A DNA stretch of 6,532 bases from Octopus sinensis (Eukaryota): assembly GCF_006345805.1 (NCBI RefSeq), contig NW_021829322.1, forward strand, positions 1 to 6,532. Direction: 5' to 3'. The notes under the pieces are model-generated. The model was not told where the DNA came from. It searched no databases and saw only the letters and a list, made by a program, of their open reading frames with translations. Below, one piece after another: positions 1-6,532 of this stretch. A program made the position numbers and the translations under genes. Every line of letters starts with the position of its first letter. The first letter of the stretch is position 1.

Positions 1-212
1 CTACGAGATTTGATCAACGGAACAGCCTGACGCAAATGGCTGAGTATTCCACAACACATGTTCCCTTAAATTATAGGTACAACTCATTTTTACGAGCTGA
101 ATAACCTGGAGCAACATGACATAAAGTGTCTTGCTCAAGGACACAAAGCGGCACCGGGTATCGAACTCCCAATCGTGAACTGAATGCCCTAACCACTTAG
201 CCACGCTCCTTC
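1..212 (-). mobile_element. tRNA-derived SINE, family A (CORE-like), copy 1; internally deleted, may extend past the left edge
   Basis: Minus-strand Pol III A box TGGCTAAGTGG (203-193) and B box GTTCGATACC (166-157), followed by TTGTGTCCTTGAGCAAGACACTTTAT, which resembles the CORE-SINE motif (TGTGTGACCTTGGGCAAGTCACTT). 121-146 is identical to 2407-2432 (26 bp) and the rest aligns co-linearly with copy 2. Confidence 0.88.
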
Positions 213-250: not shown

Positions 251-396
251 CTAGATTTCTATAGCCGAAAGGCTATAGTTGACCGGCAGTCACGTGAGAA
301 GAGAAGAGAGAAAGAAGGAATTAAGGAGAGGGAGAAGAAAGGGATGTGCCAAGAATTGGCGGGCCAAAAGAAAGGCAGGGTCATGAGTGGCATAGA
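251..396 (-). mobile_element. Candidate non-autonomous Helitron
   Basis: Minus strand reads A|TCTATGCC...CTATAGCC-TTTC-GGCTATAG-AAAT-CTAG|T: 5' TC, perfect 8-bp subterminal hairpin (259-278), 3' CTAG (254-251), A/T target, no TSD. The 5' end is ambiguous (another A|TC at 415). Confidence 0.5.
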
Positions 397-412
397 TATA
401 TATATAATATAT

Positions 413-450
<38 letters not shown>

Positions 451-462
451 TATATATTTATA
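392..462. repeat. (TA)n microsatellite
   Basis: About 70 bp of alternating TA with a few interruptions. Confidence 0.97.
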
Positions 463-657
463 GTAAATCCAAAAAAGAAGAACAACAAACACAACACAAG
501 AACGCGAGGACGTGGTACATGTAAGGTATTAGCAGACGTTCAGGGATGGAAAGAAAGGTGGTTTAACGTTTCGAGTAGACGCTCTTCTTCAGAAACAGAG
601 GAAAGTCCAACAGAAAGGAAGACGGAGTAGGAAAATCGCCGACGATTCACATGTGGT
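463..657 (-). mobile_element. Penelope-like element pseudo-LTR / non-autonomous terminal fragment
   Basis: Contains a minimal type I hammerhead motif of the kind characteristic of Penelope-like element pLTRs and abuts a (TA)n tract. No RT or GIY-YIG remnant seen. Boundaries approximate; resemblance to an octopus repeat is from memory. Confidence 0.6.
561..596 (-). ncRNA. Minimal type I hammerhead ribozyme
   Basis: Minus strand: GUUU (stem I) CUGAAGA (core) A GAG-cgucua-CUC (stem II) GAAA C G U U (core, loopless palindromic stem III, GUU triplet) AAAC (stem I'). Stem I is in exact register with a cut between 565 and 564. Confidence 0.75.
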
Positions 658-1187
658 ATGAGATGCGTGTCTCATATATTATGAATGAGGATTCGGATAG
701 AATCAGGTACTTGAAAATGTATGCACCAGTTTGGACTGGGTGATCACTGTGTGCGTCGAAATATCAGATAGGATATATCGGTTGTGTACAGAGAGAAAAC
801 CAACCCTATGAGAATTTAGCACCTGAGGGGCTGGACAAAAGCACATGTTATGTTGAATAGTATGTTGTTGGTACACTCAAGGGTGTCCAAAAATTTTTTA
901 ATCCCCTTGGTTTATTATAAATCAAATGAATAATGACATACGATGGATAATTGTCAGCTCATAACAGCTGTTTCTTACGTAATTTTTTAATAGAAGAATG
1001 AGAACATTACATCTTTATAAAAGACCGTAATCATCAGATGAGAAATAGTTTTACAAAACAAAGAAATATCGCAAGAATACAGCAGGGATGAAGGGTGGAG
1101 TCTGTCGAGGCCATTTATGAAATGGGAGAATGACCAACTTGTTGTCCGTTTAGGTTAAGTATGTAGTTCCTGTTATATGCATGGGAA

Positions 1188-1280
1188 CGCGCGCGTAAAC
1201 ACAACCACACACAAGCACACACACACACACACACACAAACACACAAACACACAAACACACACACACATACACACACATAC

Positions 1281-1315
<35 letters not shown>

Positions 1316-1342
1316 CGCGCACACACACACCCGCACACAAAC

Positions 1343-1392
<50 letters not shown>

Positions 1393-1634
1393 ACGCACAC
1401 ACACACACGCGCACACACACAACAAACAACAAACACACAAACACACACAACATACACACACATACACACACCACACACACACACAACAACACACACACAA
1501 CACGCACACACACACACGCACAAACACCATACACATATACACACACACACACACACACACCAAACACACACGCACACACACACACGCGCACACACACACA
1601 AACACACAAACACACAAACACACACACACATACA

Positions 1635-1687
<53 letters not shown>

Positions 1688-1946
1688 GCACACACACAAC
1701 GCACAAACACACATACACATATCACACACACACCACACACACACACACAAACACACACGCACACACACACACGCGCACACAACACACACACACAAACACA
1801 CAAAAACACAAACACACACACACATACACACACATACACCCACACACAAACACACACCACACACGCGCACACACACACACGCACAAACACACATACACAT
1901 ATACACACACACACACAAACACACACGCACACACACACACGCGCAC

Positions 1947-1983
<37 letters not shown>

Positions 1984-2134
1984 CACACACAAACACACAC
2001 ATACACACACACATACACACACATACACACACACACAAACACACACACACACGCACGCACACACACACACACACGCACGCACACACACACACGCGCACAC
2101 ACACATGCACACATACACACACGCACACACACAA

Positions 2135-2167
<33 letters not shown>

Positions 2168-2183
2168 CACACATACACACACA
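1188..2183. repeat. Imperfect (CA)n/(TG)n microsatellite of ~1 kb with ~183-bp higher-order repeat
   Basis: CA dinucleotides interrupted by AA, TA and CG variants; starts at a (CG)4 run; variant pattern recurs at 1333, 1518, 1701 and 1881. Confidence 0.97.
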
Positions 2184-2185
2184 TA

Positions 2186-2506: not shown

Positions 2507-2522
2507 TCAACACACAAACACA

Positions 2523-2741
2523 TAATCCTTTCTACTCTAGGCACAAGGCCTGAAATTTTGAGGGAGGGGGATGAATCGATAACACCGACCCCAGTGCGTA
2601 ACTGGTACTTGTTTAATCGACCCCGAAAGGATGAAAGGCAAAGTCGACCCCGGCGGAATTTGAACCCTGAACGTAACGGCAGGCGAAATACCGCTAAGCA
2701 TTTCGCCCGGCGTGCTAACGATTCTGCCAGCTCGCCGCCTT
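2523..2741 (-). mobile_element. tRNA-derived SINE, family B
   Basis: Minus strand begins AAGGCGGCGAGC, A-box-like TGGCAGAATCGT (2729-2718), B box GGTTCAAATTCC (2666-2655), central CCTTTCATCCTTTCGGGGTCGATTAAACAAGTACCAG resembling a conserved SINE central domain (Meta/Sauria-SINE-like, from memory), ends ...GTAGAAAGGATTA. CpG-rich relative to its flanks, suggesting a young copy. Confidence 0.85.
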
Positions 2742-2774
2742 ACGTACACTCCACATAATGCAGTATAGACATAT

Positions 2775-3280: not shown

Positions 3281-3425
3281 GTGTGGTGGTGGTGGTGGTG
3301 GTGGTGGTGGTAGTGGTGGTGGTGGTTGTATGGTGGTTGTGGTGGTGGTGATGGTGGTGGTGTTGGTGGTGGTTGGGGTGATGGTGGTGATGGTGGTGGT
3401 GGTGGTAGTGATGGTGGTGGTGGTG

Positions 3426-3459
<34 letters not shown>

Positions 3460-5366
3460 TATGGTGGTTGTGGTGGTGGTGGTGGTGGTGGTGTTGGTGG
3501 TGTTGTGGTGATGGTGGTTGTGGTGATGGTGGTGATGGTGGTGTGTGGGTGTGTGTTGGTGGTGGTGTGGTGGGGGGGTGGTGGTGTTGGTGGGGATGGT
3601 GGGGTGGGGGTTGGTGGGGGTGTGGTTGGGGGGGGGGGGGGGTGGTGAGGGTGGGGAGTGGTGGGGGGGTGGTGGTGGGTGGGAGGTGGTGGTGGTGGTG
3701 GTGGGGGGGGTGTGGTTTGGTGGTGGTGGTGGGGGTTGTGGTGATGTGGTAGTGATGGTGGTGGTTGTGGTGGTGGGGTAGTGATGGGTGGTTGTGGTGG
3801 TGGTGGTGGTGTGGTGGTGGTGGTGGTGGTTGTGGTGGTGGTGGTAGTGATGGTTGTGGTTGTGGTGGTGGTGTGGTGTGGTTGGGGGATGGTGGTGTGG
3901 TGGTGGTGATGATGGTTGGTGGTGTTGGTGGTGGTGGTGGGGGTGGTGTTTGGTGATGGGGGTGGTGGTGGTGTGTTGGTGGTGGTGGTGGTGGTGTGGG
4001 GATGGGGTGGTGGTGGTGCGTGGTGTGGTGGTGTGATGGTGGTGGTGTGGTGGTGGTGGGGGTGGTGGTGTGGTGATGGTGGTGGTGTGGTGGTTGTGAT
4101 GATGGGTGGTATGTTGGTGGTGGTGGTGGTGGTGGTTGTGGTGATGTGGTGGTGGTGGTGGTGTTGGGGTTGGTGTGTGGTGGTGGTGGTGATAGTGGTG
4201 GTGGTGGTGGTTGAGATGGTGGTTATGGTTGTGGTTGTAGTGGTGGTTGTGGTGGTGATGGTGGTGATGGTGGCGGTGGCGACGGTGATGTGGTGGTGGT
4301 GGTGTGGTGGTGGTGGTGGTAGTGTTGGTGGTGGTGGTTGTGGTGGTGGTGGTGGTTGTGGTGGTGGTGGTGGTGGTGATGATGGTGATGGTGGTGGTGC
4401 CGGTGGTTGTGGTAGTGGTTGTGGTGGTGATGGTGGTGATGGTGGTGGTGGTGGTTGTGGTGGTGGTTGTGGTGGTGATGGTGGTGATGGTGGTGGTGGT
4501 GGTGGTGGTGGTGGTGATGGTGGTGGTGGTGGTGGTGGTGGTTGTGGTGGTGGTTGGGTGGTATGGTGGTGATGTGGTGGTGGTGTGGTGGTGGTGATGG
4601 TGGTGATGGTGGTGGTGGTGGTGGTGGTGGTTGTGGTGGTGGTTGTGGTGTGATGGGGGTGGTGTGGTGGTGGTTTGGTGGTGGTTGTGTGGTGGTGGTG
4701 GTTGTGGTGGTGGTTGTGGTGTGGTGGTGGTGGTGGTGGTGGTGGTTGTGATGTTGTGGTGGTGGTGGTGGTGGTGGTTGTGGTGGTGGTTGTGGTGGTG
4801 ATGGTGGTGATGGTGGTGGTGGTGGTTGTGGTAGTGGTTGTGGTGGTGATGGTGGTGATGGTGGTGGTGGTGGTTGTGGTGGTGGTTATGGTGGTGATGG
4901 TGGTGATGGTGGTGGTGGTGGTGGTGATGGTGGTGATGGTGGTGGGGGTGGTGTGGTGGTTGTGGTGGTGGTTGTGGTGGTGATGGGGTGATGGTGGGGT
5001 GGTGTGTGGTTGTGGTGGGGGTTGTGGTGTGATGGTGGTGATGGTGGTGTGTTTTTGGTGGGGTGTTGTGGTGGTGGTGTGGTTGTGGGGCTGGTGGTGG
5101 TGGTTGTGGTGGTGGTTGTGGTGGTGATGGTGTTGATGGTGGTGGTGGTGGTGGTGACGGTGGTGGTGGTTGTGGTGGTGGTGATAGTAGCGGTAGTGTT
5201 GTTGTTGGTGGTAGTGGTGGTAGTGGTAGAGGTAGAGATGGTAATGGTAGTGAAATTGGTGGTGGAGGAGGAAATGATGATAGTGGTCATAGTGGTGGTG
5301 GTGGTGTCGGTGGTGGCGATGGTGTTGGTGGTGATAGTAGCGGTAGTGTTGGTGGTGGTGGTGTTG
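3281..5366. repeat. Imperfect (GGT)n/(ACC)n trinucleotide tract, ~2.1 kb
   Basis: GGT interspersed with GAT, TGT, AGT and GTT variants; G homopolymers at ~3570-3710; more decayed toward 5180-5366. Confidence 0.98.
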
Positions 5367-5631: not shown

Positions 5632-6532
5632 AGCATGTCCCTTAGTAGCATGTCCCTTAGTAGCATGTCCCTTAGTAGCATGTCCCTTTGTAGCATGTCC
5701 ATTAGTAGCATGTCCCTTTGTAGCATGCCCCTTTGTAGCATGTCCCTTTGTAGGATGTCCCTTAGTAGCATGTCCCTTAGTAGCATGCCCCTTCGTAGCA
5801 TGCACCTTAGTAGCATGTCCCTTACTAGCATGCCCCTTAGTAGATGTCCCTTAGTAGCATGCCCCTTAGTAGCATGTATCTTAGTAGCATGCCCCTTAGT
5901 AGCATGTCCCTTAGTAGATGTCCCTTTGTAGCATGTCCATTAGTAGCATGTCCCTTAGTAGCATGCCCCTTGGTAGCATGTCCCTTAGTAGATGTCCCTT
6001 TGTAGCATGTCCATTAGTAGCATGTCCCTTTGTAGCATGCCCCTTTGTAGCATGTCCCTTTGTAGGATGTCCCTTTGTATCATGTCCCTTCGTAGCATGT
6101 CCATTTGTAGCATGTCTATTAGTAGCATGTCCCTTTGTAGGATGTCCCTTTGTATCATGTCCCTTCGTAGCATGTCCCTTTGTAGCATGTCCATTAGTAG
6201 CATGTCCATTAGTAGCATGTCCCTTTGTAGCATGCCCCTTTGTAGCATGTCCCTTTGTAGGATGTCCCTTTGTATCATGTCCCTTAGTAGCATGTCCCTT
6301 TGTAGCATGTCCATTAGTAGCATGTCCCTTTGTAGCATGCCCCTTTGTAGCATGTCCCTTTGTAGGATGTCCCTTTGTATCATGTTCCTTAGTAGCATGT
6401 CCCTTTGTAGCATGTCCATTAGTAGCATGTCCCTTTGTAGCATGCCCCTTTGTAGCATGTCCCTTTGTAGGATGTCCCTTTGTATCATGTCCCTTAGTAG
6501 CATGTCCCTTTGTAGCATGTCCTTAGTAGCAT
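5632..6532. repeat. 15-bp minisatellite, consensus AGCATGTCCCTT(A/T)GT; 60 units plus a partial, truncated by the window end
   Basis: Parsed unit by unit; 14-bp variants at 5842, 5916, 5990 and 6514; recurrent substitution variants form higher-order repeats. Confidence 0.98.

What the first reader, a model, noticed from the sequence alone, without database searches (positions are those of the whole stretch)
561..596. Minimal, probably dimer-dependent hammerhead ribozyme on the minus strand
Seen: intact cores CUGAAGA (592-586) and GAAA (572-569), a 3-bp stem II GAG/CUC preceded by an extra A, a 4-bp stem I GUUU/AAAC closing exactly around a GUU triplet, and a stem III reduced to AC/GU with no loop inside palindrome AACGTT (565-570). 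Established: minimal type I hammerheads with palindromic stem III occur in Penelope-like element pLTRs and self-cleave as dimers. Inference: this lone copy cannot fold stem III as a monomer, so cleavage (between 565 and 564) would need a second copy in cis or in trans. In a high-copy family that could act as a copy-number- or expression-dependent RNA cleavage switch in host transcripts.
Basis: partly seen in the sequence, partly recalled or inferred. Interest (0 to 1): 0.75.

Follow-up and report, generated by a model that had tools for sequence, protein, structure and literature searches.

The report
Decayed Penelope retrotransposon hammerhead ribozyme
This is a real miniature hammerhead (self-cutting RNA) motif of an already described kind, sitting in the left-over end piece of a Penelope-type jumping gene that has thousands of copies in this animal genome, and this lone, mutated copy is likely inactive.

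Summary
The motif is exactly as described and fits the published consensus of minimal hammerheads in Penelope-like elements (PLEs). It lies in a solo ~195-bp terminal repeat (pLTR, 463-657, minus strand) ending in (TA)n. [quoted passage not shown] Three of 20 ORF-bearing loci carry the pLTR on both sides of the ORF, in sense. The genome holds 4,784 exact intact family motifs (control 0). The core is conserved beyond its flanks (15/453 versus 514/5,073 deviations), mainly between source lineages. No partner motif lies on its 6.5-kb contig. Copy ends cluster about 110 nt upstream of the cut rather than at it, which fits copying from uncut RNA. Nothing found supports a host-transcript switch; cleavage is untested. 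This scan has reported PLE hammerheads of other families elsewhere in this genome. Verdict: new member of a known kind, low interest.

The parts
463..657 (-). Solo pLTR (3' end piece) of a Neptune-type Penelope-like retrotransposon, older subfamily A; 3' end uncertain by about 3 nt in the TA junction; 5' end about 12 nt short of the family's usual start
   Evidence: 4,185 first-look candidates, 40 scored, 39 other places at 85-90% identity over window 460-657 plus one at 72%; boundaries from alignments; contiguous with 3' UTR, GIY-YIG and RT in longer copies
561..596 (-). Minimal type I hammerhead motif
   Evidence: sequence; pattern match; fits the consensus in the supplement of PMC4209133
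593..596 (-). Stem I, 5' strand (GUUU)
   Evidence: sequence; pairs with 564-561; 4 bp in 48 of 60 family motifs found by pattern
586..592 (-). Core C3-A9 (CUGAAGA); position 4 (591) is U or C and position 7 (588) A or C depending on lineage
585..585 (-). Extra A between A9 and G10.1
   Evidence: A in 43 of 46 copies; described as a conserved feature of min-HHRs
573..584 (-). Stem-loop II: 4 bp in the family, 3 bp in this copy
576..576 (-). G-to-A change that removes the fourth pair of stem II
   Evidence: G in 38, A in 7, gap in 1 of 46 copies; hairpin -0.2 versus -3.8 kcal/mol for a copy with the same loop
569..572 (-). Core G12-A15.1 (GAAA)
565..570 (.). Palindrome AACGTT; ACGU can form a 4-bp helix III only between two molecules
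   Evidence: sequence; 15.2/16.2 is CG in 35 of 46 copies and CG or UA in other families
564..565 (-). Predicted cleavage site after GUU (untested)
   Evidence: hammerhead numbering from established knowledge
561..564 (-). Stem I, 3' strand (AAAC)
   Evidence: sequence
392..462 (.). (TA)n microsatellite at the element's 3' end, the likely insertion target
   Evidence: family copies end in TA-rich or other dinucleotide repeats at the same point
674..1170 (.). A different dispersed repeat next to the pLTR's 5' end, not part of the element; family not identified
   Evidence: 756 first-look candidates, 75-90% identity; no tblastn match to the PLE RT or EN at E up to 1

Best explanation
The motif is a minimal type I hammerhead inside a solo terminal repeat (pLTR) of a high-copy Neptune-type Penelope-like retrotransposon, and this lone copy, which has lost one of the four stem II pairs, is likely an inactive leftover. 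Shown: full-length elements are pLTR(hammerhead)-ORF-pLTR(hammerhead) with the ribozyme in sense; the core was kept while flanks diverged between source lineages; short copies have a fixed 3' end in (TA)n and a 5' end clustered about 100-118 nt upstream of the cut. Inferred: in the element's own transcript two hammerheads would pair through the ACGU palindrome (helix III between partners, stem I exchanged between them) and would cut slowly, likely helped by the element's protein as in the Anolis Poseidon element; selection likely acted only on transposing source copies. Solo copies such as this one were likely made when the RT began at the fixed internal site at the pLTR's 3' end (a short TA run in the RNA that could pair with a nicked TA repeat) and copied uncut RNA back to a preferred 5' stop, probably the transcription start. 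After insertion the copy likely drifted (15 differences from the subfamily majority in 168 nt).
For: PLE identity: pLTR joined to 3' UTR, GIY-YIG and RT in the window's own subfamily (L061/L062; L078); 15 of 20 ORF-chosen loci have the pLTR downstream on the same strand, 5 of 20 upstream, 3 of 20 on both sides; DKG, GxAMG, YIDD, CX4CxxC, GLIY-CxxC-YIG and H..H motifs in natural frames; RVT_1 E=2.5e-4 and GIY-YIG E=0.0045, both under Pfam's cut-off. Selection on the ribozyme: 0 of 30 functional positions against 28 of 132 flank positions differ between subfamily majorities (Fisher p=0.003); core 15/453 against flank 514/5,073 in 46 copies chosen on the upstream UTR, no base-matched permutation of 20,000 as low; core 8/219 against 194/2,081 in 29 young copies chosen on the 3' half; compensatory pairs across hand-picked families, 8 of 10 pairs. 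Lineage-level rather than per-copy: shared alleles in 0 of 10 core and 35 of 115 flank columns, rare alleles differ only weakly (p 0.04-0.09). Decay of this copy; no second motif on the contig. Uncut template: of 27 mapped non-self copies chosen on the 3' half, 20 start 100-118 nt upstream of the cut and at most 1 at it; 4 of 4 upstream pLTRs run through the same TA run into the element body. Literature: monomer inactive and dimer weak; PAc hammerhead needs the protein and is not needed for insertion.
Against: No cleavage assay exists for this family. Nearest-neighbour energies do not favour the hammerhead dimer even for intact copies (-5.7 to -8.3 against -19.6 to -22.5 kcal/mol for the best dimer fold), so the energy model cannot rank activity reliably. 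Stems are not significantly more conserved than flanks among old copies (p 0.075 and 0.27) and compensatory changes within the family are rare. Rare alleles are still somewhat fewer in the core (ratio 0.4-0.6), which leaves room for some per-copy constraint or many small source lineages. 20 of 66 UTR-chosen loci gave no subfamily A pLTR and were left out. The core of this copy is intact and 3-bp stems II occur in published min-HHR lists, so it may still cut. The clustered 5' ends could come from microhomology with TA targets instead of a transcription start. The contig ends 560 nt downstream of the cut, so a partner beyond it cannot be excluded. Neptune membership rests on motifs compared by eye, not on a tree.
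Confidence: 0.86

Rival explanations
1. The dispersed pLTR hammerheads act as a host-level switch: copies inside host pre-mRNAs would pair in trans (or be activated by the PLE protein) when family RNA is abundant, and would cut those transcripts.
For: 4,784 exact intact motifs and 13,743 further min-HHR-like matches against 852 control matches, many with the same ACGT palindrome, give many potential partners; rare alleles are somewhat depleted in the core; protein-assisted cleavage is shown for one PLE.
Against: The conservation signal is mainly lineage-level; only 5 of 46 old copies are fully intact; the helix between partners is 4+4+4 bp and cleavage is low even in cis dimers; no reads ended at the cut in Anolis RNA-seq; no host gene is visible on this repeat-filled contig; vertebrate retrozymes are reported as excluded from introns and exons (abstract only).
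Confidence: 0.05
2. The ~220-nt solo unit is itself a non-autonomous, retrozyme- or SINE-like element that is transcribed, cut and circularised by its hammerhead and copied in trans by the PLE enzymes.
For: Short copies with two fixed ends dominate (25 of 30 in the set chosen on the whole pLTR; 20 of 27); one locus has three pLTRs in tandem at about 270-bp spacing (L109); a preprint derives retrozymes from pLTRs (abstract only).
Against: The unit's sequence is simply the last part of the ORF-bearing element in both subfamilies; ends do not fall at the cut; by the strict pattern only 2 distinct pairs were seen among 59 loci with 1.5 kb flanks, unlike tandem retrozyme arrays.
Confidence: 0.08
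3. The motif is a chance arrangement in an A/U-rich repeat and has never been a ribozyme.
For: No Rfam match; no folding signal; little covariation within the family.
Against: Exact fit to the published min-HHR consensus in the expected place and strand of a PLE; core conservation; unrelated families in the genome keep the same core with different, complementary stems.
Confidence: 0.01

Closest known systems
Minimal hammerheads (min-HHR) in pLTRs of metazoan PLEs (Cervera and de la Pena 2014, PMC4209133; parts 1-2 of 4 of the text read, supplement file 2 searched and its part 2 of 3 read, file 1 not searchable)
   Same: U-rich lead-in, CUGANGA plus one extra base, G10.1-C11.1, GAAA, palindromic 15.2-16.2 with no loop III, 4-bp helix I, found in both pLTRs about 4.4 kb apart and mostly as single dispersed motifs.
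   Different: Helix II is short (4 bp in the family, 3 bp here, against 7-8 bp in Schistosoma). The younger subfamily mostly has C at position 4 (22 of 26); I saw no such core in the rows of the supplementary alignment that I read, though U4C is known from a viroid (PMC3088659, passage).
Neptune clade of C-terminal-endonuclease PLEs (Craig et al. 2021, PMC8557442; passages and supplementary alignment rows seen)
   Same: RT, then CX2-5CxxC linker, then GIY-YIG with CCHH; DKG motif; hammerhead near the 3' end; TA-repeat targets; tandem and inverted pLTRs (L068, L069, L109).
   Different: A family of this genome not matched to a named consensus here; no RT tree was built; all copies seen have broken frames.
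Poseidon_Ac (PAc) of Anolis (Frangieh et al. 2024, PMC11167929; passages and the second half of the main text read)
   Same: Hammerhead in the pLTR; fixed 3' end of insertions at an internal site followed by an AC-rich stretch; copies do not begin at the cut.
   Different: Other clade (no cysteine linker); PAc initiates at a site not homologous to the cut DNA, whereas here the RNA has a short TA run at that point; in PAc the ORF starts inside the hammerhead, which I did not test here.
Animal non-LTR retrozymes (bioRxiv 10.64898/2026.07.22.740005, abstract and outline only; PMC7229834, search listing only)
   Same: Non-coding hammerhead-bearing repeats linked to PLE pLTRs.
   Different: Retrozymes are tandem arrays with no ORF; this unit is mostly solo and contiguous with an ORF-bearing element.

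Membership tests
PLE minimal hammerhead (min-HHR) | Core CUGANGA and GAAA with an NUH triplet, type I order | tested here: met
PLE minimal hammerhead (min-HHR) | [quoted passage not shown] | tested here: met
   A585, G584-C573; feature list
PLE minimal hammerhead (min-HHR) | Palindromic 15.2-16.2, no loop III | tested here: met
   C568-G567; CG in 35 of 46 copies
PLE minimal hammerhead (min-HHR) | Located in the pLTR of a PLE, flanking the ORF | tested here: met
PLE minimal hammerhead (min-HHR) | Covariation in helices I and II | tested here: inconclusive
   rare within the family; 8 of 10 pairs across 7 hand-picked rows, 3 of them from this family
PLE minimal hammerhead (min-HHR) | Self-cleavage as a dimer or with protein, not as a monomer | not testable with these tools
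   needs an in vitro assay
Rfam hammerhead families | Match to an Rfam hammerhead covariance model | tested here: not met
   no hammerhead among 9 matches up to E=10
EN+ Penelope-like elements | Single ORF with RT and C-terminal GIY-YIG bearing CCHH | tested here: met
   motifs in order in L101, L113 and others; Pfam hits under cut-off; frames broken in all copies seen
EN+ Penelope-like elements | pLTRs in partial tandem or inverted arrangement | tested here: met
   3 of 20 loci with pLTRs on both sides; head-to-head pair L068 and direct pair L069
Neptune clade | CX2-5CxxC zinc-finger-like linker between RT and EN, long as in Neptune rather than reduced as in Nematis | tested here: met
   CX4CxxC followed by 24 residues to the next Cys, against 25-27 in two Neptune rows and 7-8 in three Nematis rows counted by eye in the supplement of PMC8557442
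Neptune clade | Placement in an RT phylogeny | not tested
   no reference sequences were at hand as tool sequences; by eye the DKG region resembles the Neptune1_Ap row
Non-LTR retrozymes | Tandem non-coding arrays of hammerhead monomers with no cognate ORF | tested here: not met
   unit is contiguous with an ORF; mostly solo
Non-LTR retrozymes | Abundant circular RNA | not testable with these tools
   only contigs of runs guessed to be RNA were offered

The most novel reading that the evidence does not exclude
Thousands of near-identical, fixed-length solo pLTRs put intact half-ribozymes into host transcripts, where they are cut in trans by pairing with family RNA or when the element's protein is expressed; the family-wide U4C core of the young subfamily would then tune a genome-wide, transposon-triggered RNA cleavage system.
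Probability: 0.05. Interest if true: 0.75.

Novelty: new member of a known kind. Interest (0 to 1): 0.2.

Why it matters
As it stands it is one more example of a class described in 2014 and of little weight alone. The family is a usable test bed for an open question, what PLE hammerheads do in vivo: it offers 4,784 intact motifs, two age classes, natural U4 and C4 cores, and solo copies whose two fixed ends bracket the uncut ribozyme. If dispersed copies did cut host RNAs in trans it would be a new form of transposon-driven gene regulation, but nothing found here points to that.

Tried and rejected
Rfam scan: no hammerhead model matched. Monomer folding: no signal. ORFs in the window: all 45 listed looked like simple-repeat or repeat-derived frames, none followed up. 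tRNA head: ARAGORN found none in the window; the sequence upstream of the family's 5' end was not scanned. PDB search with the RT frame: no match. Pfam on the first, decayed RT fragment: no family. Idea that the U at core position 4 is CpG decay of an ancestral C: rejected for subfamily A, TG 36 against CA 1 at that site in 58 copies, whereas other CpGs decay evenly, 17 and 17. Idea that cleavage sets the 5' end of inserted copies: at most 1 of 27 (2 loci unmapped and the query's own locus left out; the query held 5 nt upstream of the cut, which slightly favours uncut copies). Expression: no RNA holder listed; contigs of runs only guessed to be RNA hold family copies, some across the cut, and none listed matched this copy end to end; contigs cannot show ends, strand or level, so this is no evidence either way. 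Intron strand-bias test: not possible without gene annotation. Lunse et al. 2017 on dimeric PLE hammerheads could not be read; I saw only its title and a review's account (PMC6765202, passages), so it or the unread supplement file of PMC4209133 may already list this family or the C4 core. Searches for print: octopus+Penelope+hammerhead (5 papers, 4 listed), Neptune/Penelope-like/solo/pLTR, hammerhead/U4C/core variant; none showed this family, which is not proof of absence. Solo pLTRs are noted in PMC3846280 (passages) and ascribed there to recombination or deletion. Look-ups of this scan's notes by sequence and by nearness gave nothing.

Full report
Observation. A generic hammerhead pattern matches only there, and in 0 of 200 shuffles. 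Rfam has no matching hammerhead model and the monomer shows no folding signal (z 0.30), as expected for a motif with no helix III of its own. The window is a whole 6,532-bp contig of a 2.72-Gb genome, made mostly of simple repeats and a 15-bp satellite; earlier notes of this scan call the animal an octopus, which I did not test.

What it lies in. Window 460-657 is a dispersed repeat with 4,185 first-look candidates, of which 40 were scored. Its 3' end on the minus strand is fixed and runs into (TA)n. Five of the 30 fetched copies extend further upstream. Searching with that extension gave 1,855 candidates. One of them, L061, joins the repeat (83.5% identical to the window copy) through about 1.1 kb of low-complexity 3' UTR to a GIY-YIG remnant and an RT remnant, with L062 aligning along the same path. 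Searching with that coding part gave better-preserved copies. Of 20 such loci fetched with long flanks, 15 have the repeat downstream on the ORF's strand, 5 upstream and 3 on both sides; in L113 the two hammerheads are 4,408 bp apart. The frames hold DKG, GxAMG, YIDD, CX4CxxC, GLIY-CxxC-YIG and two histidines in that order, with RVT_1 and GIY-YIG hits under Pfam's cut-offs. A cysteine linker marks Neptune and Nematis (PMC8557442, passages); its length here, 24 residues, fits the Neptune rows of that paper's supplementary alignment, compared by eye. The repeat is therefore the pLTR of a Neptune-type PLE, and the window holds a solo copy.

Copy number. The intact family motif has 4,784 exact matches against 0 for the control. 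A looser pattern that leaves out the family's usual stem II start has 13,743 matches against 852; the first 100 listed include several unrelated families. Minimal hammerheads are thus common in this genome, as reported for other animals.

Is the motif under selection? Copies fall into an older subfamily A, which includes the window copy (mean 89.7% identity to its majority), and a younger B (92.5%). Between their majorities 0 of 30 core and stem positions differ against 28 of 132 flank positions; the four differences in the motif are at positions 4 and 7 and in loop II. Among 46 A copies chosen only on the upstream UTR (20 of 66 loci gave no A copy and were left out), the ten invariant core positions deviate 15 times in 453 against 514 in 5,073 for flanks, beyond all 20,000 base- and CpG-matched permutations; the stems do not differ significantly (p 0.075 and 0.27). 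A set of 29 B copies chosen on the 3' half agrees (8/219 against 194/2,081). The signal is mainly lineage-level: alleles shared by four or more copies occur in 0 of 10 core and 35 of 115 flank columns, while rare alleles differ only weakly (p 0.04-0.09). Only 5 of 46 A copies keep core, stems and palindrome intact. Compensatory changes are rare within the family but clear across 7 hand-picked rows, 3 from this family and 4 from others (8 of 10 pairs; that control ignores relatedness). My reading is that source elements were selected to keep the ribozyme and inserted copies mostly drift; some residual per-copy constraint is not excluded.

This copy. It differs from the A majority at 15 of 168 positions, one of them G to A at 576, which removes the fourth pair of stem II. 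The hairpin drops from -3.8 kcal/mol in a natural copy with the same loop to -0.2, and the modelled dimer fold from -8.3 to -1.1. The model leaves out the core's non-canonical pairs and metal ions and prefers other dimer folds even for intact copies, so this is indicative only. There is no second motif on the contig, though the contig ends 560 nt downstream of the cut.

How it most likely works. Established: min-HHRs lack helix III, showed no cleavage as monomers and low cleavage as dimers or trimers (PMC4209133); the Anolis PAc hammerhead cuts only with the element's protein, is not needed for insertion in vitro, and reverse transcription starts inside the RNA (PMC11167929). Shown here: of 27 mapped non-self copies chosen on sequence downstream of the cut, 20 begin 100-118 nt upstream of it and at most one at it, and their 3' ends fall at +114 to +119; in 4 of 4 upstream pLTRs that 3' point is a short TA run followed by an AC-rich stretch of the element body. 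Inferred: solo copies are reverse transcripts of uncut RNA from that internal site back to a preferred 5' stop, likely the transcription start, with TA microhomology as the rival cause of the clustering. In tandem transcripts two hammerheads would pair through ACGU and cut slowly or with protein help. The step of the life cycle that this serves remains open in the papers read.

The host-switch idea. The many near-identical motifs make trans pairing conceivable, but nothing found supports it: the conservation is mainly lineage-level, most old copies are damaged, published activity is low, and no host gene is visible here. The RNA runs offered could not address it.

Comparison and verdict. The motif meets every sequence feature of the PLE min-HHR class that I could test and matches the consensus in that paper's supplement; activity is untestable here. 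It is not a retrozyme by arrangement. Minor points of note are the C at core position 4 in 22 of 26 B copies, which in A is a lineage allele and not CpG decay and is known to lower activity in vitro in a viroid (PMC3088659, passage), and the fixed 5' end of solo copies. Lunse et al. 2017 could not be read and may cover such variants. New member of a known kind; interest 0.2.

Noticed in passing
L101, L102, L103, L109, L113 and most matches: The younger subfamily carries C at core position 4 in 22 of 26 copies; subfamily A has both U (31) and C (14) of 46, and the pattern is not CpG decay.
   Followed up: partly
L220-L249 and L002-L030: Solo pLTRs have a clustered 5' end 100-118 nt upstream of the cut and a fixed 3' end, so the cut lies near the middle of a ~220-nt unit; possible mark of the transcription start.
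   Followed up: partly
L109:2424-2539, L113:2504-2619, L105, L108: At the pLTR-to-body junction the element itself holds a short TA run followed by an AC-rich stretch, which could pair with a nicked TA target.
   Followed up: partly
L109:7560-8396: Three pLTRs in direct tandem at about 270-bp spacing after the ORF, a natural cis-dimer arrangement; each has a change in core or stem II.
   Followed up: no
L068 and L069: A head-to-head pair and a direct pair 730 bp apart, each combining an old and a young subfamily pLTR.
   Followed up: no
L150-L179: Several unrelated minimal-hammerhead families with different complementary stems; one with a 6-bp stem II dominates the first 100 of 13,743 matches.
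   Followed up: partly
window 674-1170: A second dispersed repeat (756 candidates) with a fixed end next to TA-rich sequence in other copies, resembling a PLE-like end; not identified.
   Followed up: partly
window 32-212 and 2265-2506: Two diverged copies of a short dispersed repeat 2.3 kb apart, with SINE-like appearance (recalled, not tested); also present in other fetched loci.
   Followed up: no
window 2520-2750: Another short dispersed repeat, matched by about 40 fetched loci.
   Followed up: no
window 1197-2185, 3283-5350, 5632-6532: Long (CA)n and (GGT)n tracts and a 15-bp satellite of 60 copies that runs off the contig end.
   Followed up: no
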